Positions 1 through 29,323 of a stretch of 31,756 nt of DNA are shown one piece after another. Under the pieces are notes generated by a model. The model was not told the DNA's origin and ran no database searches. It saw only the letters and a program-made list of their open reading frames with translations. Positions within the stretch are counted from its first letter, which is position 1. Each line of letters begins with the position of its first letter. The position numbers and the translations under genes are program-made. The DNA comes from a virus, in the UHGV virus genome UHGV-0302986. One strand, given 5' to 3'.

Positions 1-73
1 ACACCTTTTTAAAATACAGCCCCAATAAACTGCAGAATATTATCCCATATAATATCCTGCAGTTCGTAATGCA

Positions 74-424
74 CTATTCGATAATGGGTCCTGTTGGCCA
101 TTCAATATCCGGTGCAGTTGATGTATCAACACGGTTCAGCAATACCCGATACTTCTTCCAGGCTTCCACCACCAGCACGACAAGATGCCGCATACAGTGA
201 CCCAGTCAGTCCAGTTTCCAGACAACCAGTGCGTCACCTTTTTGAAGGCGCTTTAAAGCACGTTTTAATCCAGGTCGGCCTGTCCTTATTCCGCTTAATT
301 TATCTTCAAATATTTGTTCACATCCTGCACAAACAAGAGCGTTTCGTTGCAGGTCTGTATTCTGGTCATTTGTTGATACCCTTACATAGCCAATCAGCAC
401 GCTGAATCTCCCGTCCAAAAGCAC
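74..424 (-). pseudogene. pin: Gin/Pin-family serine DNA invertase, degraded remnant
   Basis: ORF 206..424 translates to ...VLIGYVRVSTNDQNTDLQRNALVCAGCEQIFEDKLSG...LVVWKLD, the conserved N-terminus of Gin/Pin/Hin/Cin invertases (probable GTG start at 400). In-frame TGA at 206..208 sits where the family has Arg (WKLD-R-LGRSM). The continuation [14 protein letters not shown] keeps similarity briefly, then diverges and ends at TAG 74..76. No C-terminal HTH domain is found in any frame of 1..205. Confidence 0.6.
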
Positions 425-454
425 AAATCATGCCATGCAGGCCAGAAACCGCCA

Positions 455-480
455 TTATCTAAAACCTCGGTTTACAGGAA
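455..480. repeat. gix/hix-like 26-bp invertase crossover site, left boundary of invertible segment
   Basis: TTATCTAAAACC-TC-GGTTTACAGGAA: two imperfect 12-bp half-sites around a 2-bp core, matching the remembered Gin/Hin site pattern. An inverted copy lies at 3508..3533, with 24 bp of identical flank (ACGGTAAA...) continuing inward. Confidence 0.7.
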
Positions 481-1425
481 ACGGTAAATCAGGCTTCTGG
501 CGCATTACAGAAAAACCAGAACGGCGCAGATATTCCGGGAAAAGATACCTTCACCAAAAACATTGGTGCCTGCCGCGCATATAGCGCATGGCTGAATATT
601 GGTGGCGATAGTCAGGTCTGGACAACTGCGCAATTTATTTCGTGGCTGGAGAGTCAGGGGGCATTTAACCATCCTTACTGGATGTGCAAAGGCTCATGGG
701 CTTATGCAAATAATAAGGTTATTACAGATACAGGTTGCGGAAATATTTGTCTTGCAGGTGCTGTGGTGGAAGTTATTGGCACTCGCGGCGCAATGACCAT
801 ACGCGTTACTACGCCGAGCACGTCCAGCGGTGGCGGAATTACTAACGCTCAATTCACTTATATTAATCATGGTGATGCTTACGCTCCTGGCTGGCGACGA
901 GACTACAACACGAAAAACCAGCAGCCTGCATTTGCTTTAGGGCAAACAGGACGCAGGGTCGCAAATGATAAAGCTGTTGGCTGGAACTGGAATAGCGGTG
1001 TTTATGATGCAGATATCAGTGGTGCATCGACATTAATCCTCCACTTCAATATGAATGCGGGGAGTTGCCCTGCTGTACAGTTCCGCGTGAATTACAGGAA
1101 CGGCGGTATTTTTTATCGTTCAGCGCGTGATGGTTATGGCTTTGAAGCTAACTGGTCAGAGTTTTACACCACAACACGCAAACCCTCTGCGGGGGATGTT
1201 GGTGCATATACGCAGGCAGAATGTAACTCAAGGTTTATTACAGGTATTCGCCTTGGCGGTCTGTCATCTGTTCAGACATGGAAAGGCCCCGGCTGGTCTG
1301 ACAGGTCAGGTTATGTCGTTACGGGTTCAGTTAACGGAAACCGTGATGAATTAATTGATACAACTCAGGCAAGGCCAATTCAGTATTGCATTAATGGGAC
1401 GTGGTATAACGCGGGGAGTATTTAA
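469..1425 (+). CDS. Silent alternative side-tail-fibre C-terminal cassette (promoterless; expressed only after inversion)
   Basis: The frame is open from the crossover site to the stop at 1423..1425 and contains track ORF 682..1425. Translation starts LGLQETVNQASGALQKN..., parallel to stf LGLQETVNRARNAVQKN..., and ends IQYCINGTWYNAGSI versus stf IQKYINGTWYNVVQV. An in-frame TAA at 460..462 lies in the outer half-site and would be left behind on inversion. Confidence 0.6.
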   Translation, partial: GLQETVNQASGALQKNQNGADIPGKDTFTKNIGACRAYSAWLNIGGDSQVWTTAQFISWLESQGAFNHPYWMCKGSWAYANNKVITDTGCGNICLAGAVVEVIGTRGAMTIRVTTPSTSSGGGITNAQFTYINHGDAYAPGWRRDYNTKNQQPAFALGQTGRRVANDKAVGWNWNSGVYDADISGASTLILHFNMNAGSCPAVQFRVNYRNGGIFYRSARDGYGFEANWSEFYTTTRKPSAGDVGAYTQAECNSRFITGIRLGGLSSVQTWKGPGWSDRSGYVVTGSVNGNRDELIDTTQARPIQYCINGTWYNAGSI

Positions 1426-1427
1426 CG

Positions 1428-1961
1428 ATGATGCACTTAAAAAACATTACTGCTGGCAACCCTAAAACAAAAGAGCAATACCAGCTAACAAAGCAATTTA
1501 ACATCAAATGGCTTTATTCAGATGATGGAAAAAACTGGTATGAGGAACAAAAGAATTTCCAGCCAGACACTTTGAAAATGGTCTATGACCATAACGGCGT
1601 TATTATTTGTATTGAAAAGGATGTTTCAGCAATTAATCCAGAGGGTGCAAGCGTCGTTGAATTACCTGATATTACAGCAAATCGCCGGGCTGATATTTCG
1701 GGGAAATGGATGTTCAAAGATGGCGTAGTGATAAAGCGAACTTATACCGAGGAAGAGCAGAGGCAACAAGCGGAAAATGAAAAGCAAAGCCTGTTGCAAC
1801 TTGTCAGGGATAAAACCCAGCTATGGGACTCACAGCTACGGCTGGGCATCATTTCCGACGAGAATAAACAAAAATTAACCGAGTGGATGCTCTATGCGCA
1901 GAAAGTCGAATCTACAGACACTTCCGGCCTGCCAGTAACGTTTCCCGAACAACCAGAATGA
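1428..1961 (+). CDS. tfa: Tail fibre assembly protein (cassette B)
   Basis: 177 aa; [25 protein letters not shown]...ANRRADISGKWMFKDG...LPVTFPEQPE is a paralogue of the minus-strand Tfa at 1990..2517. It lies immediately after the alternative fibre tip, as in Mu G / e14 P segments. Confidence 0.85.
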   Translation: MMHLKNITAGNPKTKEQYQLTKQFNIKWLYSDDGKNWYEEQKNFQPDTLKMVYDHNGVIICIEKDVSAINPEGASVVELPDITANRRADISGKWMFKDGVVIKRTYTEEEQRQQAENEKQSLLQLVRDKTQLWDSQLRLGIISDENKQKLTEWMLYAQKVESTDTSGLPVTFPEQPE

Positions 1962-1964
1962 GAG

Positions 1965-1991
1965 AAGGCCCGCTATCGGGCCTTAATTTTT
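1965..1991. terminator. Hairpin between convergent tfa genes, probable bidirectional terminator
   Basis: AAGGCCCG-CTAT-CGGGCCTT stem-loop followed by AATTTTT on the plus strand. Confidence 0.45.
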
Positions 1992-2517
1992 ACTCTGGTT
2001 TTTGTGGCCATTCAGGATTTGCCGTATCCACACGGCTGGCCAGAACACTGTAGCGTTCCCATGCTTCCAGTCGTGTGCGTTCCTCGTCTGTTGCCATATT
2101 CAGCCTGACAGCGCGTTCCAGCGGTTGGATGACTGATTCAGCTTCGGAAAGCAATGCGGCCTTTTGTGATTCGGCCTGTTGTTGTTGCTCGTCTGCCGTA
2201 TAAATCCGTTTAACCACAGCTCCGTCCCTAAACATCCACTTACCGGAATCATCAGCGCAGCGGTTGGCTGTAATATCTGGAACCTCAACGACGCTATAAC
2301 CTTCAGGGTTAAGCGTGGAGGCATCTTTGGTGATGGCGACAATAATATTATTTGCATCGTAAACAATCTTTATTGTGTCTGGCTGAAAGTTTTTCACTTC
2401 CTCATACCAGTTTTTTCCGTCTTCGGACCATAACCAGATAACATCAAAATTCTTTGTTAGCTGATATTGTTCTTTTGTTTTTGGATTTCCAGACTTAATA
2501 TTTTTTAAATGCTGCAT
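1990..2517 (-). CDS. tfa: Tail fibre assembly protein (cassette A, currently coupled to stf)
   Basis: 175 aa; [30 protein letters not shown]...[16 protein letters not shown]...EWPQKPE, Tfa family, directly downstream of stf. Confidence 0.85.
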
Positions 2518-2520
2518 AAA

Positions 2521-5400
2521 TTACACCTGTACGACGTTATACCATGTGCCATTGATGTATTTTTGTATTGGTCTGAATACTGCCGGATCATCGCCATCAA
2601 CTGCACCGATAATGCCAAGCCCCGTAATTGCATGACCTGATTTCTCATACATCACGCCTTTTTGCATAGTCTGAACAACACGTGTACCAAGTCGGACATC
2701 TCTCACATAACGTGAGTCAAAATTACCATAATTGCCGGGAATAACTTGCGCACCGCAAAGCCAGTTGCCATTGTTGTCCATGTACGCCTGACCATCGGTG
2801 CCATTGGCTGTCCTTGAGTTATTAATCATGTAGATGCCAAATTGCTTATTCCCCAGTCCACCAATCATAAATTTGCGATCAGCGTGGTCCTGACGAAGTA
2901 ATGCCTGCGCACCATCGGTGGATACCGCATTGCGTCCCAAAATAACATTCTGGTCACGCATATGAATCCACATGCCGGTACTACTGTTAATTGCAAAACG
3001 GTTTGCAAATATATCCCCTGTAACATCAAGACCATGCCCCATGCTTATCCGACCAGTTCTGAGATTAAGCGTAAAGGGGCGTAGTGGCCCTATACCACCA
3101 TTTTCTCCCTCATTCTCTCGTGTAGGGATGATATGCAGGCATTCTTCAGAACGACGAAAAATAGCACCAAAAGATGAATTAAATATCCTCAGTGCATTGA
3201 CTGTCGATATTTTTACTTCACTGCTGAAAAGGGCTTTAACAAGGACAGACAAAGCATCCCATTTAAGAGTCATCAGGTCTTTTGTTGTGGTGCTCTGGCG
3301 GCTTCTCCATTTGAAATATTCATTGCCGTTGTCGCCTGTTTCAAACCACATGTATGAATCAGTGTCGCTGTCGGCATTATTTTTAAAACCAATCTTTGCC
3401 CAGTCAGTATTTCTAATCCAGGCAAGGATTGAGTCGTTTTCAAAAGTAAGCCCACCGGACAAGGTATCGCCATTCTTTTGCACGGCGTTCCTGGCCCTGT
3501 TTACCGTTTCCTGTAAACCGAGGTATTCGATAACGGCAGCAACGGTCGATTTCGCAAGAATATCCCGCCCGACTTTTGTCAGGGTTGCCAGGCTGGCGAC
3601 ATCATTCCCCGTAAAATACGGAAACCTGTCTGCCGCAGTAGCAAGCCCGGCCAGCGCCGTCAGGGTGGCATCTTTCGGTTGCTTACCCGCAAGCGCGTTA
3701 GTCATGGTGGTCGCAAAATTCGGGTCGTTGCCCAGCGCCGCCGCTAACTCGTTCAGCGTATTCAGTGCGTCAGGCGACGAGTCTACAAGGGCGGCAATCG
3801 CGGCCATCACATAAGCCGTACTTGCGATCTGAGTATTATTAGTACCTTTTGGCGCAGTTGGCGTTGTTGGCGTTCCGGTCAGTGCAGGACTATTTAAGGG
3901 CGCTTTCTTGTTCGTTTCATCCATTACCGCCTTAACCGCTTTTGGTGTCGCAGCCAGCGTTTCAGACGGGCTGTTAGTGGCGCTACTGAGCTGAACCACA
4001 CCTTTTTTCGTCGTACTCGCATCTTCCAGAGATACGGCATCAGCAATATCCTCTGCCCGTTTTGCCGCTGTTTCGGCACGCGTTGCCGCGGATTCAGCAG
4101 CAACTTTGCTCTGAGATGCAGCCGTCGCACTGCCTGCCGCCTCTGATGCTTTCGTTGTTGCTGTCGTGGCACTACCTTTCGCTGCTGACGCTTGTCTGGT
4201 CGCCTCATCTTTTGAAGCAGACGCAGATGATGTCGATGACGCCGCTGAACCAGCGGACGATGCGGCTGCCGCCTTAGAGGAAGCAGCATTGTCTGCTGAA
4301 GTCTTTGCATTTGTTTCAGAGGTTTTTGCTGCAGAAGCAGACCTCGCTGCTGCAGTGGCTTGCTCAGTGGCTTCGCCAGCCTTCGTTGTGGCTGTTGAAG
4401 CGGATGATGCGGCGCTTTCTGCCGATTTTCCGGCAGCGGTGGCACTGGCTGAGGCCTGCCCGGCACTTGTTGACGCAGCACTGGCAGACGACGCAGCCGC
4501 TGTTTTTGAACCTGCCGCAGCTGAGGCGCTCTGTCCCGCTGCTGTTTCAGAAGACTTAGCGTTCGTCTCGGACGTTTTTGCCGCCTTCGCGGAATTTCCT
4601 GCCGCTGTTGCCGAGGAAGCTGCGCTACTGGCGCTCGAGGATGCGTTCGTTTCTGATGATTTTGCCGCCTCTTTTGAAGCCGCCGCATCCCGGGCTGAGG
4701 TGGCAGCTTCTGACGCTTTCGTAGTCGCGGTGGATGCAGAAGTGGCTGCTGATTGTTGTGACGCTGCAGCATTCGTTTCTGACGTTTTCGCGGCACTGGC
4801 ACTGGTAGCTGCCGCGCTTTTTGAGGACTCTGCAGCGGCAGCACTTTTTGATGCTTCAGTGGCCTTTGTTGATGCCGTTCCTGCGCTGGAAGTCGCTGAC
4901 TGAGCCGACGACGCGGCCTGTCCGGCTGACGTGCTGGCTGCGCGTGCTGAGCCTGCAGCATCAGTCGCATGGGTTGCCGCCTCACGGGCTGATGTGCTGG
5001 CATCACTGGCTGACTTCTTTGCGGCTGCCGTGTTCTGTGCCACCACGGACGCGTTACGCGCCACCTCTTCCACCATCAGCTCAAAACGGCGCAGTGCCTC
5101 CGGACGGGCATCATCCTCCGTCATGGCACCGAGAAAATCATTCAGCGTACCGGGTCAGGAATCTTCATACACTGTGATGGTCCCGGCATGTGACGGCGGG
5201 AATCCTTCCACCAACAGAATAACGCTGTACTGACCGTACTCAACGTCCATACTGTAACGCCCGGCTTCATCCGGATTTTCTGAGGCCAGCGTGTTCACCA
5301 CCACCGTGGTACTGTTACGTTTTGCTTTCAGCTGGATTGTGCAGTTCTGTACCGGTTTTCCTGTGCCGTCTTTCAGTACACCTGAAATCTTTACTGCCAT
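2521..5400 (-). CDS. stf: Side tail fibre protein Stf, interrupted by an in-frame TGA at 5155..5157
   Basis: N-terminal ORF (ATG at 5400) MAVKISGVLKDGTGKPVQNCTIQLKA...TITVYEDS matches the lambda Stf N-terminus. TGA at 5155..5157 is followed in the same frame by PGTLNDFLGAMTEDDARPEALRR... (track ORF 2521..5124, 867 aa), a long Ala/Ser/Thr-rich shaft and a C-terminal tip ending INGTWYNVVQV. Confidence 0.85.
3508..3533. repeat. gix-like crossover site inside stf, right boundary of invertible segment
   Basis: Minus-strand reading TTATCGAATACC-TC-GGTTTACAGGAA is an inverted copy of 455..480 and encodes stf residues IEYLGLQE. Confidence 0.7.
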
Positions 5401-19348: not shown

Positions 19349-20648
19349 TTACACTGGTGTGTTCAGCAAATCGTTAACGGCATCAGATGCCGGGTTACCT
19401 GCAGCCAGCGGTGCCGGTGCCCCCTGCATCAGACGATCCAGCGCAGTGTCACTGCGCGCCTGTGCACTCTGTGGTGCAGCTGCCAGAATGCGGCGGGCCG
19501 TTTCCACGGTCATACCGGGGGTTTCTGCCAGCACGCGGGCCTGTTCTTCGCGTCCGTGAGCCTCCTCACAGTTGAGGATCCCCATAATGCGGCTGTTTTC
19601 TGCCGCAACCGCTGCGGTGATCTGCGCGTTCACGTCCGGCTGCGCCGCGCTGGCGTTTTCGCCCTCCGTCGCTGGCACCACGTCAGTAACGTCAGTCTGC
19701 GAAGCAGTGGCTGAAACAGTTGTTGATTGAGTCTCTTTGGTCATTCGCCCTCCTGAGAGACGGGATTTACGCGCATCCAGTGCATCACGCATGACGGTGA
19801 TCGCATCGGTGCTGTTAACAAGTTCATCAGCCAGTCCGGCATCAATGGCCTCCTGACCGCTGTACACTGCAGCCTCGGTATCCAGCACAGCCTGCACAGA
19901 CAGGCCGGTATATGCCGACACCTTCTGTGCAAACATCCGGCGGGTTGCGTCCATCCGGGACTGCAGTGTCTCCCGGACGTCATCCGGAAGATGGCTGTAG
20001 GGATTGCCATCCACCTTATGGCTGCCGCTGTAAATCAGCGTGATTTCCACACCCTGTTTCTCCAGGGCAGCACCGTAATTACTGTGAGCCATCATGACGC
20101 CGATGGAGCCTGTCCGGGCGGTCTGCGTGACCAGACGCCGGGAGGCGGCACTGGCAAGCAGCTGACCTGCACTGCAGTTCATGTCGTTGGCCAGCGCCCA
20201 TACCGGTTTTATGTCACGCACACGGGCGATGATGTCAGCGCAGTCAAATGCCCCCGCCACCATTCCGCCTGGCGTGTCCATATCGAGCAGAATGCCGTCC
20301 ACCATCGGGTCGCTGGCAGCCTGTTGCAGACGGGCGATAATGCCGTTGTAACCGGTCATCCCCGAGTACGGCTGCAGCGCCCGCGTCCGGCTGACCAGCG
20401 TGCCGGACACCGGCAGCACGGCGATGCCGTTCATGACCTGATAACTGCGGGCCTGTCGTGGTCCGTCATCATCACCGGATAATGCCAGCGTCGCGAGTGC
20501 CTCCTGGGCAGTCAGGCTGTCGCCGGACACCGCATCCGTCAGGCGGCTGATCCCAAGCTGGCCTGCAAGCGCACAAAAGAAAACCCGCGCATAGGCGGGT
20601 TCAAGCATCAGCGGCTCATTAAAGGCCATGCTGGCAATATGCGGGAGA

Positions 20649-20668
<20 letters not shown>
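19349..20668 (-). CDS. C: Prohead protease / minor capsid protein C, with nested in-frame scaffold gene Nu3
   Basis: GTG start at 20668 overlapping the end of B; (M)TAELRNLPHIASMAFNEPLMLEPAYARVFF...; 439 aa. The C-terminal part corresponds to the lambda Nu3 nested reading frame (internal start not mapped here). Confidence 0.9.
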
Positions 20669-24349
<3,681 letters not shown>

Positions 24350-24375
<26 letters not shown>

Positions 24376-24895
24376 TCAGCAACCCCGGTATCAGTTCATC
24401 CAGCGCGGCTGCTTTGTTCATGGCTTTGATGATATCCCGTTTCAGGAAATCAACATGTCGGTTTTCCAGTTCCGGAAAACGCCGCTGCACCGACAGGGGG
24501 ATCCCGTCGAGAATACTGGCAATTTCACCTGCGATCCGCGACAACACGAAAGTACAGAATGCGGTTTCCACCACTTCAGCGGAGTCTCTGGCATTCTTCA
24601 GTTCCTGTGCGTCGGCCTGCGCACGCGTAAGTCGATGGCGTTCGTACTCAATAGTCCCTGGCTGGAGATCTGCCTCGCTGGCCTGCCGCAGTTCTTCAAC
24701 CTCCCGGCGCAGCTTTTCGTTCTCAATTTCAGCATCCCTTTTGGCATACCATTTTATGACGGCGGCAGAGTCATAAAGCACCTCATTACCCTTGCCACCG
24801 CCTCGCAGAACGGGCATTCCCTGTTCCTGCCAGTTCTGAATGGTACGGATACTCGCACCGAAAATGTCAGCCAGCTGCTTTTTGTTGACTTCCAT
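24350..24895 (-). CDS. Nu1: Terminase small subunit Nu1
   Basis: 181 aa; MEVNKKQLADIFGASIRTIQNWQEQGMPVLRGGGKGNEVLYDSAAVIKWYAKRD..., immediately downstream of cos. Confidence 0.95.
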
Positions 24896-25070
24896 TGTTC
24901 ATTCCACGGACAAAAACAGAGAAAGGAAACGACAGAGGCCAAAAAGCTCGCTTTCAGCACCTGTCGTTTCCTTTCTTTTCAGGGGGTATTTTAAATAAAA
25001 ACATTAAGTTACGACGAAGAAGAACGGAAACACCTTAAACCGGAAAATTTTCATAAATAGCGAAAACCCG

Positions 25071-25094
25071 CGAGGTCGCCGCCCCGTAACCTGT
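25071..25094. other. cos: cos site: cosN cohesive-end sequence plus flanking right-end bases
   Basis: AGGTCGCCGCCC (reverse complement of the lambda 12-nt cohesive end GGGCGGCGACCT) at 25071..25082, followed by CGTAACCTGTCG (reverse complement of the lambda right-end terminal bases). The flank 24896..25070 matches the remembered lambda cosB region upstream of Nu1. Confidence 0.85.
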
Positions 25095-25283
25095 CGGATC
25101 GCCGGAAAGGACCCGCAAAATGATAATAATTATCATCTGCATGTCACAACGTGCATCTACGCCATCAAACCACGTCAAATAATCAATTATGACGCAGGTA
25201 TCGTATTAATTGATCTGCATCAACTTAACGTAAAAACAACTTCAGACAATACAAATCAGCGACACTGAATACGGGACAACCTC

Positions 25284-25517
25284 ATGTCAACGAAGAACAG
25301 AACCCGCAGAACAACAACCCGCAACATCCGCTTTCCTAACCAAATGATTGAACAAATTAACATCGCTCTTGATCAAAAAGGGTCCGGGAATTTCTCAGCC
25401 TGGGTCATTGAAGCCTGCCGCCGGAGACTGTGCTCAGAAAAAAGAGTTTCTCCTGAAGCAAACAAAGAAAAGAGTGACATTACTGAATTGCTCAGAAAAC
25501 AGATCAGACCAGATTGA
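25284..25517 (+). CDS. Small basic cos-proximal protein, possibly DUF3950 (YlcI-like), possible ribbon-helix-helix
   Basis: 77 aa; MSTKNRTRRTTTRNIRFPNQMIEQINIALDQKGSGNFSAWVIEACRRRL...; an equivalent ORF sits next to cos in lambda and DLP12 (from memory); transcribed opposite to the late operon. Confidence 0.6.
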   Translation: MSTKNRTRRTTTRNIRFPNQMIEQINIALDQKGSGNFSAWVIEACRRRLCSEKRVSPEANKEKSDITELLRKQIRPD

Positions 25518-28240: not shown

Positions 28241-29323
28241 ATGAAAAAATTAACAGTGGCAATTTCTGCTGTAGCTGCATCAGTACTGATGGCGATGTCT
28301 GCTCAGGCAGCTGAAATTTATAATAAAGACAGTAACAAGCTGGATCTGTACGGGAAAGTTAATGCTAAGCACTACTTCTCCTCTAATGATGCAGATGATG
28401 GTGATACTACTTATGCCCGTCTTGGCTTCAAAGGTGAAACCCAAATCAACGATCAACTGACTGGTTTCGGTCAGTGGGAATATGAATTCAAAGGCAACCG
28501 CGCTGAATCTCAAGGTTCCTCCAAAGACAAAACCCGTCTTGCATTTGCAGGCCTGAAATTCGGTGACTACGGCTCAATCGATTACGGCCGTAACTACGGT
28601 GTAGCATACGACATCGGTGCGTGGACTGACGTTCTGCCAGAATTCGGTGGCGATACCTGGACCCAAACAGATGTATTCATGACTGGTCGCACCACAGGTG
28701 TTGCAACTTATCGTAACAACGACTTCTTTGGTCTGGTTGATGGCCTGAACTTTGCAGCTCAGTATCAGGGCAAAAATGACCGAAATGAAGTAACTGAAGC
28801 TAATGGCGATGGTTTCGGTTTCTCAACTACTTATGAGTATGAAGGATTCGGCGTGGGTGCAACCTATGCTAAATCTGATCGCACTAATAATCAGGTTATC
28901 TACGGTAACAACGGTCTGAATGCTTCTGGTCAAAATGCTGAAGTATGGGCAGCTGGTCTGAAATATGATGCGAACAACATCTATCTGGCCACCACCTATT
29001 CTGAAACCCAGAACATGACTGTTTTTGGTAATAACCATATTGCCAACAAAGCACAAAACTTCGAAGCTGTTGCACAATATCAGTTCGACTTCGGCCTGCG
29101 TCCATCCGTTGCTTACCTGCATTCTAAAGGAAAAGACTTGGGTGTTTGGGGTGATCAGGACCTGGTTGAATATGTTGATGTAGGTGCAACCTATTACTTC
29201 AACAAAAATATGTCCACTTTTGTTGACTACAAAATCAACCTGATTGATAAGAGCGATTTCACGAAAGCATCTGGCGTTGCTACCGATGATATCGTTGCTG
29301 TAGGTATGGTTTACCAGTTCTAA
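28241..29323 (+). CDS. nmpC: Outer membrane general porin (OmpC/NmpC/Lc family), prophage moron
   Basis: 360 aa; signal peptide [59 protein letters not shown]-terminal ...VGMVYQF. It lies opposite to and between Q and the lysis genes, preceded by a ~540-bp AT-rich region. Confidence 0.9.

What the first reader, a model, noticed from the sequence alone, without database searches (positions are those of the whole stretch)
455..3533. Invertible tail-fibre segment: two fibre-tip/tfa cassettes between inverted gix-like sites
A 26-bp site at 455..480 (TTATCTAAAACC TC GGTTTACAGGAA) is repeated in inverted orientation inside stf at 3508..3533, with 24 bp of identical inward flank. Between the sites lie the current stf variable C-terminus plus tfa (minus strand) and a promoterless alternative fibre C-terminus plus a second tfa (plus strand). 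Inversion at the core would fuse the constant stf part in frame to the alternative tip (..IEYLGLQETVNQASGALQKN...INGTWYNAGSI), leaving the TAA of the outer half-site behind. This is the Mu G / P1 C / e14 P-type host-range switch, here on a lambda-type stf.
Basis: partly seen in the sequence, partly recalled or inferred. Interest (0 to 1): 0.55.

Follow-up and report, generated by a model that had tools for sequence, protein, structure and literature searches.

The report
Orphan Mu-type invertible tail-fibre segment
This is a copy of the classic phage Mu "G segment" host-range switch, grafted onto the side tail fibre gene of a lambda-like E. coli prophage; its own invertase gene is a dead stump, yet natural E. 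coli genomes carry it in both orientations, so it is a well-known kind of switch, probably flipped by other prophages' enzymes.

Summary
Two inverted 26-bp gix-type sites (455-480 and 3508-3533, 24/26 identical, none expected by chance) bracket a 3.05-kb segment holding two convergent tip+tfa cassettes. Simulated inversion fuses the constant stf part in frame to the silent tip.

This is an orthologue of the Mu G segment (about 90% nucleotide identity). The expressed tip and chaperone match Mu S/U and the silent pair matches S'/U'. The closest phage copy is P88 (97%).

- The adjacent invertase is a remnant: 64 Gin-like codons, a stop, 17 more codons, then a fusion to a lambda-type tfa 3' end.
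- stf carries a nonsense codon (TGA, 5155-5157) absent from five relatives, so this copy probably cannot make a full fibre.
- The predicted inversion product exists in nature, with one mismatch over 5.2 kb. Among genomes with this orphan module, 58 have the window orientation and 97 the inverted one. Both occur in near-clonal strains.

The segment therefore still flips, most likely through Pin-family invertases supplied in trans. The first 112 nt of gin, where the Fis enhancer should lie, are identical to Mu. This is a new member of a known kind, of modest interest.

The parts
74..178 (-). 3' remnant of a lambda-type tail fibre assembly gene (tfa'), ...[30 protein letters not shown]. It is fused in frame behind the recombinase stump.
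   Evidence: RefSeq annotation of the matching locus in PSS-13. Translation. Megablast of this part hits tfaQ/tfaR 3' ends in thousands of genomes.
163..400 (-). Dead DNA-invertase remnant (gin'). It has 64 Gin-like codons from a GTG at 398-400 (95% aa identity to Mu Gin) and a TGA at 206-208. About 14-17 further PinE-like codons follow ([14 protein letters not shown]), and then the tfa' junction. The rest of the catalytic domain, helix E and the DNA-binding domain are missing.
   Evidence: Pfam Resolvase N-terminal domain, profile positions 2-73 of 145 only. Alignments with Mu gin, the P88-type invertase and K-12 pinE. Homology to an intact Gin-like invertase gene stops at position 210.
289..400 (.). 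Inferred Fis-dependent recombinational enhancer (sis), inside the retained 5' end of gin'.
   Evidence: Window 400-289 (gin nt 1-112) is 100% identical to Mu and P88. The Fis sites of the G system lie in the gin coding region about 550 bp upstream of the mom start (PMC3378877, with Mu coordinates). The hin enhancer sits about 100 bp from hix (PMC3798978). Function was not tested.
455..480 (+). gix-type crossover site next to gin' (TTATCTAAAACC TC GGTTTACAGGAA). Its in-frame TAA at 460-462 closes the silent ORF upstream.
   Evidence: It differs by 1 nt from Mu gix, TTATCCAAAACCTCGGTTTACAGGAA. It is identical to the site in a P2-like prophage that has an intact invertase.
469..1425 (+). Silent alternative fibre tip with no start codon of its own; an orthologue of the variable part of Mu S'.
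   Evidence: 96.5% aa identity to the Mu S' variable part. PDB 8JU3 'Tail fiber protein S,S'' E=1.5e-214. Pfam gp37_C.
1428..1961 (+). Silent tail fibre assembly gene, an orthologue of Mu U'.
   Evidence: 97.2% aa identity to Mu U'. Pfam Caudo_TAP E=2e-36.
1965..1984 (.). GC-rich hairpin between the two convergent tfa genes, terminator-like on the + strand.
   Evidence: 8-bp stem AAGGCCCG/CGGGCCTT followed by AATTTTTACT. This is a consensus match only.
1990..2517 (-). Tail fibre assembly gene in the currently expressed orientation, an orthologue of Mu U.
   Evidence: 93.1% aa identity to Mu U. PDB 5YVQ_B E=5e-107. Pfam Caudo_TAP.
2521..3519 (-). Fibre tip currently joined to stf, an orthologue of the variable part of Mu S.
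   Evidence: 70% aa identity to the Mu S variable part. PDB 5YVQ_A residues 171-502, E=4e-148.
3508..3533 (-). gix-type crossover site inside stf (TTATCGAATACC TC GGTTTACAGGAA), read through as VIEYLGLQE.
3522..5400 (-). Constant part of the lambda-type side tail fibre gene stf. It is interrupted by an in-frame TGA at 5155-5157 (codon 84).
   Evidence: Pfam PF08400 Prophage tail fibre N-terminal. Translation ..VYEDS*PGTLNDF... Position 5157 is A here and G (codon CGA) in PSS-13, ES6, ES1, PSS-16 and C2. Gene order J-lom-stf as in lambda.

Best explanation
The 3,055-bp stretch between the two cores (467-3521) is an orthologue of the phage Mu G segment. It sits at the 3' end of the side tail fibre gene (stf) of a lambda-like prophage integrated beside ybhB/bioA.

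In the window's orientation, which is the orientation of the Mu reference genome, the constant stf part is joined to an S-type tip followed by a U-type chaperone. An S'-type tip and a U'-type chaperone lie silent on the other strand.

Recombination by a serine DNA invertase at the 2-bp TC cores of the two inverted gix sites would turn the segment round. That would join stf in frame to the S' tip and place U' behind it, changing the receptor specificity of the fibre.

The cognate invertase gene is only a stump here and cannot do this. The two gix sites are intact, and so is the 5' part of gin that should hold the Fis enhancer. The segment is therefore an 'orphan' substrate, and I infer that it is flipped by Pin/Gin-family invertases encoded elsewhere (other prophages, plasmids or infecting phages).

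What is shown:
- the anatomy
- the homology to Mu and P88
- the in-frame fusion
- the defect in the invertase
- both orientations in nature, with breakpoints inside the 25-bp identical stretch

What is inferred:
- that an invertase acts in trans
- that the enhancer works
- that the tips change host range as they do in Mu

In this copy a TGA at stf codon 84, not seen in five relatives, should prevent synthesis of either full-length fibre.
For: Anatomy. The sites are inverted and not expected by chance, and the in-frame fusion was simulated. The layout is collinear with Mu gin-S'-U'-U-S.

Homology:
- 89.5% and 95% nt identity to Mu, and 97% between phage P88 and an O145 P2-like prophage copy (L006) that is itself 95.5% identical to window 210-4006
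- protein matches to solved Mu S, U and S' structures

Invertase defect. Pfam covers only profile positions 2-73 of 145. A stop codon and the tfa fusion follow.

Enhancer region. gin nt 1-112 are identical to Mu. The literature places the Fis sites there.

Both orientations in nature:
- The simulated inverted 5.2 kb matches ET76, EC6 and ES1 with one mismatch, which is the window's own TGA change.
- ES1, C2 and PSS-16 have the inverted segment at the same chromosomal site. C2 carries the identical truncated recombinase WP_001378636.1; ES1 and PSS-16 carry the same remnant under other annotations.
- Over 12 kb the window is closer to ES1 (inverted, 3 SNPs) than to ES6 or PSS-13 (same orientation, 5 and 7 SNPs).
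- EC31 and EC12 have no mismatch in 20.4 kb of chromosomal flank but opposite orientations.
- Nine sub-lineage signatures each occur in both orientations.
- Counts are 58 genomes in the window orientation and 97 inverted.

Invertases in trans:
- 55 of the 60 listed carrier records (54 strains) have further chromosomal matches to a query made of an anchor gene plus two invertase genes.
- The literature documents trans inversion: PinQ/PinR/PinE on the e14 P segment, PinE on Mu G, and Fin on the Salmonella H segment (PMC12529663).
Against: - No intact invertase lies in the 31.7-kb window.
- The closest genome, PSS-13, has no e14 at icd. Its second match was not identified.
- Five of the 60 listed carriers (for example ES6) show no second chromosomal match to the invertase query.
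- Differences in orientation between genomes are population evidence. They do not show flipping within one culture.
- Crossovers anywhere in the 25-bp identical stretch give the same product, so sequence alone cannot separate site-specific from homologous recombination.
- The stf nonsense codon means no phenotype is expected in this strain.
Confidence: 0.8

Rival explanations
1. Frozen relic. The segment inverted only while an intact gin was present, or only in some past hosts. In the window's genome it is now locked, so it is an inert fossil of a G segment.
For: gin is truncated and interrupted. stf has a nonsense codon, which fits a decaying prophage end. Five of the 60 listed carriers show no other chromosomal Pin-family match. 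PSS-13 lacks e14.
Against: The same truncated recombinase accompanies both orientations in near-identical backgrounds. EC31 and EC12 have no mismatch in 20.4 kb of flank. The window and ES1 differ by 3 SNPs in 12 kb. Nine sub-lineages each show both orientations. Flips therefore happened repeatedly after the truncation. Whether this particular strain can still flip is not known.
Confidence: 0.12
2. The inversions are made by general (RecA-dependent) homologous recombination between the 38-bp inverted repeats, not by a site-specific invertase.
For: The repeats share 25 bp of perfect identity, and no cognate invertase is present. The products would be indistinguishable by sequence.
Against: From general knowledge, 25 bp is at the lower limit for RecA-mediated exchange in E. 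coli, so events should be very rare. Yet orientation changes between genomes that differ by 0-3 SNPs over 12-20 kb, and the two orientations are near balance at 58:97. The sites are canonical gix sites, identical to those of a P2-like prophage with an intact invertase (L006). Trans-acting Pin enzymes are common in E. coli and are documented.
Confidence: 0.07
3. The inverted repeat is a coincidence of conserved tail-fibre coding sequence (the LGLQETVN motif) and there is no switch.
For: Both arms lie in homologous coding sequence for the same peptide motif.
Against: No matches are expected by chance. The sites match Mu gix at 25/26 and 23/26. Natural genomes carry the exact predicted inversion product.
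Confidence: 0.01

Closest known systems
Phage Mu / D108 G segment (gin, gix, S-U / S'-U')
   Same: Same order and orientation of all parts. About 90-95% nt identity over the segment. The gix sites differ by 1 and 3 nt. The silent tip and chaperone are 96.5% and 97% identical to S' and U'. The expressed chaperone is 93% identical to U. The gin 5' end is identical over 112 nt.
   Different: The constant part is a lambda-type Stf (PF08400, behind J and lom) and not the Mu S N-terminus. The expressed tip is only 70% identical to Mu S, with a diverged block at 3042-3229. gin is a dead stump fused to a tfa remnant. The host element is a lambdoid siphovirus prophage.
Escherichia phage P88 (Xuanwuvirus, P2-like) and P2-like prophages of E. 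coli O145
   Same: These are the closest copies of the module. P88 is 97% nt identical to the O145 P2-like prophage copy (L006). L006 is 95.5% identical to window 210-4006. The L006 gix pair is identical to the window's.
   Different: They keep an intact 195-aa invertase and join the segment to a myovirus fibre gene next to baseplate genes. Homology to the window ends at position 210, inside the recombinase gene.
P1 / P7 C segment (cin, cix)
   Same: About 88-89% nt identity over the tip and chaperone genes, and the same logic of a tail-fibre C-terminus switch.
   Different: The C segment is larger (4.2 kb, PMC12529663). The invertase is Cin and it is intact.
e14 P segment of E. coli K-12 (pinE, stfP/tfaP/tfaE/stfE)
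   Same: An invertible tail-fibre cassette on a defective lambdoid prophage. It is flipped by several Pin enzymes in trans (PMC12529663; PMC4272514).
   Different: It is a 1.8-kb segment with different crossover sites (no gix match within 6 mismatches). PinE is intact and only 77% identical to the window's 64-codon stump.

Membership tests
Gin/Cin/Pin/Hin-type invertible DNA segment (serine DNA-invertase system) | Two 26-bp crossover sites in inverted orientation, each made of two 12-bp half-sites around an identical 2-bp core | tested here: met
   455-480 and 3508-3533. Both have the TC core and an identical inner half-site, GGTTTACAGGAA. They match Mu gix at 25/26 and 23/26.
Gin/Cin/Pin/Hin-type invertible DNA segment (serine DNA-invertase system) | A functional serine invertase gene adjacent to the segment | tested here: not met
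   Only 64 codons lie before a TGA, and about 82 codons in all before the fusion to tfa'. Pfam Resolvase covers positions 2-73 of 145, and helix E and the DNA-binding domain are absent. The cis parts are those of the family, but the locus is not a complete system.
Gin/Cin/Pin/Hin-type invertible DNA segment (serine DNA-invertase system) | A Fis-bound recombinational enhancer in cis, normally within the 5' end of the invertase gene | tested here: inconclusive
   The sequence is retained: gin nt 1-112 are 100% identical to Mu. The position agrees with the literature. Fis binding and enhancer function were not tested.
Gin/Cin/Pin/Hin-type invertible DNA segment (serine DNA-invertase system) | Both orientations occur, with breakpoints at the crossover sites | tested here: met
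   The exact simulated product is found in natural genomes. Breakpoints fall within 451-493 / 3496-3537. This was seen between genomes, not within one culture.
Mu G segment orthologue group (S/U versus S'/U' host-range cassettes) | Alternative fibre C-termini, each followed by its own chaperone, in opposite orientation and in frame with one constant N-terminal part | tested here: met
   ORFs and the in-frame fusion. Orthology to Mu S, U, S' and U'.
Mu G segment orthologue group (S/U versus S'/U' host-range cassettes) | Inversion changes the host range of the phage | not testable with these tools
   This needs adsorption or plaque assays. In this copy stf has a nonsense codon.

The most novel reading that the evidence does not exclude
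The invertase-less G segment may be a widespread, maintained module of lambdoid prophages. Its junction occurs in 536 of 5,426 complete E. coli genomes. Its orientation would be set by invertases of other prophages in the same cell, giving a cross-prophage phase-variation network. In that reading it would serve the host as well as phage host range, for example through fibre-derived proteins that block adsorption of other phages, as reported for e14 StfE2.
Probability: 0.12. Interest if true: 0.5.

Novelty: new member of a known kind. Interest (0 to 1): 0.25.

Why it matters
The switch itself is textbook biology: Mu G, P1 C and e14 P, with solved structures for the very tips and chaperone found here. 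The find adds no new mechanism.

Two points are mildly useful.

- It shows tail-fibre modularity. A Mu/P2-type invertible cassette has been spliced onto a lambda-type side fibre, and this hybrid has spread among different lambdoid prophages at different chromosomal sites.
- The cassette has lost its invertase but kept its sites and probable enhancer, and it is still found in both orientations in near-clonal strains. This is a natural example of dependence on invertases supplied in trans.

For genome annotation, the 'hypothetical protein', 'tail fiber protein' or partial 'phage tail protein' calls at the silent tip in RefSeq are the silent S' exon. The pseudogene calls on stf in this orientation, and on the silent tip in the other, reflect the switch state rather than decay.

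Tried and rejected
- I looked for the e14 pix sites with the gix pattern in K-12 e14 and found no match within 6 mismatches. The e14 P-type label was dropped in favour of the G type.
- I tried to identify the trans invertase in the closest genome, PSS-13, by reading the icd region. e14 is absent there. The second chromosomal match of PSS-13 remains unidentified, because the search tool lists only the best place per record.
- I used a chimeric query (diguanylate cyclase anchor + Gin-like invertase + pinE) to count extra invertase loci in carriers. It gives only a count of places, so a weak match to the anchor cannot be excluded.
- I considered that the recombinase was cleanly truncated at position 209/210, as the blast result suggested. 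Translation and comparison with pinE showed another 14-17 PinE-like codons after the stop, before the tfa junction.
- Two papers were not held in the library: Plasterk 1983 (PMC384254) and Mehta 2004 (PMC331406).
- The promoter scan gave fewer hits than shuffled sequence and is uninformative.
- No test could separate site-specific from RecA-mediated exchange, because there is no polymorphism inside the 25-bp identical stretch.
Full report
**Observation.** The 26-bp site at 455-480 (TTATCTAAAACC TC GGTTTACAGGAA) recurs on the minus strand at 3508-3533 with two mismatches, both in the outer half-site. None of 100 dinucleotide-preserving shuffles produced a match. The repeat finder extends the pair to 38 nt at 92% (451-488 / 3500-3537). 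The perfectly identical stretch is 25 bp (464-488).

Between the sites lie four reading frames:
- the variable end of a long minus-strand ORF, 2521-3519
- a tfa gene on the minus strand, 1990-2517
- a plus-strand tip ORF with no start codon, 469-1425
- a second tfa gene on the plus strand, 1428-1961

A GC-rich hairpin sits between the two convergent tfa genes at 1965-1984. Simulated inversion at the TC cores (467-468 / 3520-3521) fuses the constant part in frame to the silent tip. The silent frame is closed upstream by a TAA at 460-462 in the outer half-site.

**Context.** The window is the late region of a lambda-like E. coli prophage. It holds NinB, RusA, Q, holin, endolysin, Rz, the terminase-to-tail genes, J, lom and then stf. 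In matching complete genomes it sits beside ybhB/bioA, and a diguanylate cyclase gene ends just outside window position 1.

**What the segment is.** A search of the phage collection with the closely related module of an O145 P2-like prophage (L006, 95.5% identical to window 210-4006) gave these nucleotide identities:

| Phage | Identity |
|---|---|
| P88 | 97% |
| D108 | 94% |
| Mu | 90% |
| P7 | 89.5% |
| P1 | 88% |

Aligned directly, window 210-3042 is 89.5% identical to Mu and 3229-3533 is 95% identical. The annotated Mu map, read in the same direction, is gin(-), boundary, S'(+), U'(+), U(-), S(-), boundary. That is the exact layout of the window.

| Window part | Mu counterpart | Amino-acid identity | Solved structure |
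|---|---|---|---|
| Silent tip, 469-1425 | S' variable part | 96.5% | 8JU3 |
| Silent tfa, 1428-1961 | U' | 97.2% | - |
| Expressed tfa, 1990-2517 | U | 93.1% | 5YVQ_B |
| Expressed tip, 2521-3519 | S variable part | 70% | 5YVQ_A |

Mu's gix sites (TTATCCAAAACCTCGGTTTACAGGAA) differ from the window's by 1 and 3 nt. This is therefore a G-segment orthologue in the orientation of the Mu reference genome. It is attached to a lambda-type Stf (Pfam PF08400) and not to the Mu S N-terminus. The e14 P segment is a more distant relative. Its crossover sites are different, and PinE is only 77% identical to the recombinase stump here.

**The invertase is dead.** The ORF at 206-424 matches only profile positions 2-73 of 145 of the Resolvase catalytic domain. 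Counted from the GTG used by Mu gin (398-400), it has 64 Gin-like codons, including the active-site serine motif. A TGA follows at 206-208, where intact invertases have the Arg of KLDRLGR. After that come about 14-17 PinE-like codons ([14 protein letters not shown]). The frame then runs straight into the last 30-35 codons of a lambda-type tfa (74-178). DNA homology to an intact Gin-like invertase gene (O145 P2-like prophage L006) ends at position 210.

The tfa remnant has the orientation and position of lambda tfa behind stf. I infer that a donor block, running from the conserved stf/S region through the G segment into gin, replaced the resident stf 3' end and most of tfa.

This stump-plus-remnant junction is present in 536 of 5,426 complete E. 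coli genomes. It occurs in different lambdoid prophages at different sites, for example beside prfC in EC31 and EC12.

**The cis parts are kept.** Both gix sites are identical to those of the O145 P2-like prophage L006, whose invertase is intact. The first 112 nt of gin (window 400-289) are identical to Mu and P88. The literature places the Fis sites of the G system inside the gin coding region, about 550 bp upstream of the mom start. On the Mu map that is about 110 nt into gin. The hin enhancer lies about 100 bp from hix. I infer that the enhancer is retained. Its function was not tested.

**Does it flip?**
- The predicted inverted junction (802 nt) is found at 100% identity in more than 20 complete genomes.
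- The whole simulated 5.2-kb inverted locus matches ET76, EC6 and ES1 with a single mismatch. That mismatch is the window's own TGA change at 5157.
- ES1, PSS-16 and C2 have the prophage at the same ybhB site and the same recombinase remnant. C2 is annotated with the identical WP_001378636.1 protein, ES1 with a longer call of the same ORF, and PSS-16 has a pseudogene annotation. The segment is reversed in all three, with breakpoints inside the inverted repeats.
- Orientation does not follow relatedness. Over 12 kb the window differs from ES1 (inverted) at 3 positions. It differs from ES6 and PSS-13 (same orientation) at 5 and 7 positions.
- EC31 and EC12 have no mismatch in 20.4 kb of chromosomal flank and none inside the segment, yet they have opposite orientations.
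- Nine sub-lineage signatures in the hit tables each appear in both orientations.
- With queries that require the orphan junction plus the adjacent tip, 58 genomes have the window orientation and 97 the inverted one.

Repeated, recent inversion after the loss of gin is the simplest reading.

**How it flips.** The stump cannot catalyse recombination, so an enzyme in trans is needed. A query made of an anchor gene plus a Gin-like and a PinE-type invertase gene found further chromosomal places in 55 of the 60 listed carrier records (54 strains). Pin-family sequences occur in about 90% of E. coli genomes. Cross-action within this family is documented. PinQ, PinR and PinE all invert the e14 P segment. 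PinE inverts Mu G, and Fin inverts the Salmonella H segment (PMC12529663). Prophage tail-fibre segments flip continuously in culture (PMC4272514).

I could not identify the helper in any one genome. PSS-13 lacks e14, and five of the 60 listed carriers show no second chromosomal match. RecA-mediated exchange within the 25-bp identity would give the same product and cannot be excluded by sequence. I consider it unlikely given how often orientation changes between near-identical genomes.

**This particular copy.** stf runs from 5400 to 2521 but has an in-frame TGA at 5155-5157 (..VYEDS*PGTLNDF..). All five relatives examined have CGA at this codon. Unless this is a base-calling error, neither fibre form can be made in full here, so the switch has no expected phenotype in this strain.

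**Verdict.** The element is a new member of a very well known kind: the Mu G, P1 C and Pin family, with solved structures for its tips and chaperone. The added points of interest are the loss of the invertase, the evidence that the orphan segment still inverts in natural populations, and its wide spread on lambdoid prophages. Interest is modest.

Noticed in passing
window 5155-5157 (minus strand): There is an in-frame TGA at codon 84 of stf. Position 5157 is A here and G (codon CGA, Arg) in PSS-13, ES6, ES1, PSS-16 and C2. It is either a nonsense mutation so far seen only in this sequence or a sequencing error.
   Followed up: yes
window 74-209 (minus strand): The recombinase stump is mosaic: Gin-like to codon 64, then PinE-like (MRHLVVLV). 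It is fused in frame to the 3' end of a lambda-type tfa. In PSS-16 the stop at 206-208 reads TGG, which leaves a continuous pin'-tfa' fusion ORF. The junction occurs in 536 of 5,426 complete E. coli genomes.
   Followed up: partly
window 30-62: A near-perfect 14-bp palindrome, CTGCAGAATATTAT-CCCAT-ATAATATCCTGCAG, lies between the end of the neighbouring diguanylate cyclase gene (just outside the window) and the tfa remnant. It may be a terminator or a site of unknown role.
   Followed up: no
L001/L004 locus positions just left of window position 1: A 443-aa sensor diguanylate cyclase gene (AT-rich) sits between ybhB and the prophage end in carriers at the lambda attachment site. It looks like a cargo gene at the prophage end.
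   Followed up: no
window 28241-29323 (+): A 360-aa ORF of unknown function (PHROG 410, full-length match) lies on the strand opposite to the late genes, between Q and the holin. This is the position where lambdoid phages often carry cargo genes.
   Followed up: no
window 3042-3229: A block of the expressed S-type tip is too diverged from Mu to align at the DNA level, while the sequence on either side is 89-95% identical. This is a mosaic joint inside the tip, and the tip is only 70% identical to Mu S overall.
   Followed up: partly
L010 / L011 (E. coli EC31 and EC12), locus 19988-25446: The same orphan module (identical truncated recombinase protein WP_001378636.1) sits on a different lambdoid prophage, with an HK97-type head, integrated beside prfC. 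The module therefore moves between prophages. The two strains are identical in 20.4 kb of flank but have opposite segment orientation.
   Followed up: yes
NZ_AP027829.1 and NZ_AP023235.1 (hits H84, H85): In two carriers the locus is interrupted by insertion sequences, IS903B and IS2 respectively, within the 5.2-kb region.
   Followed up: no
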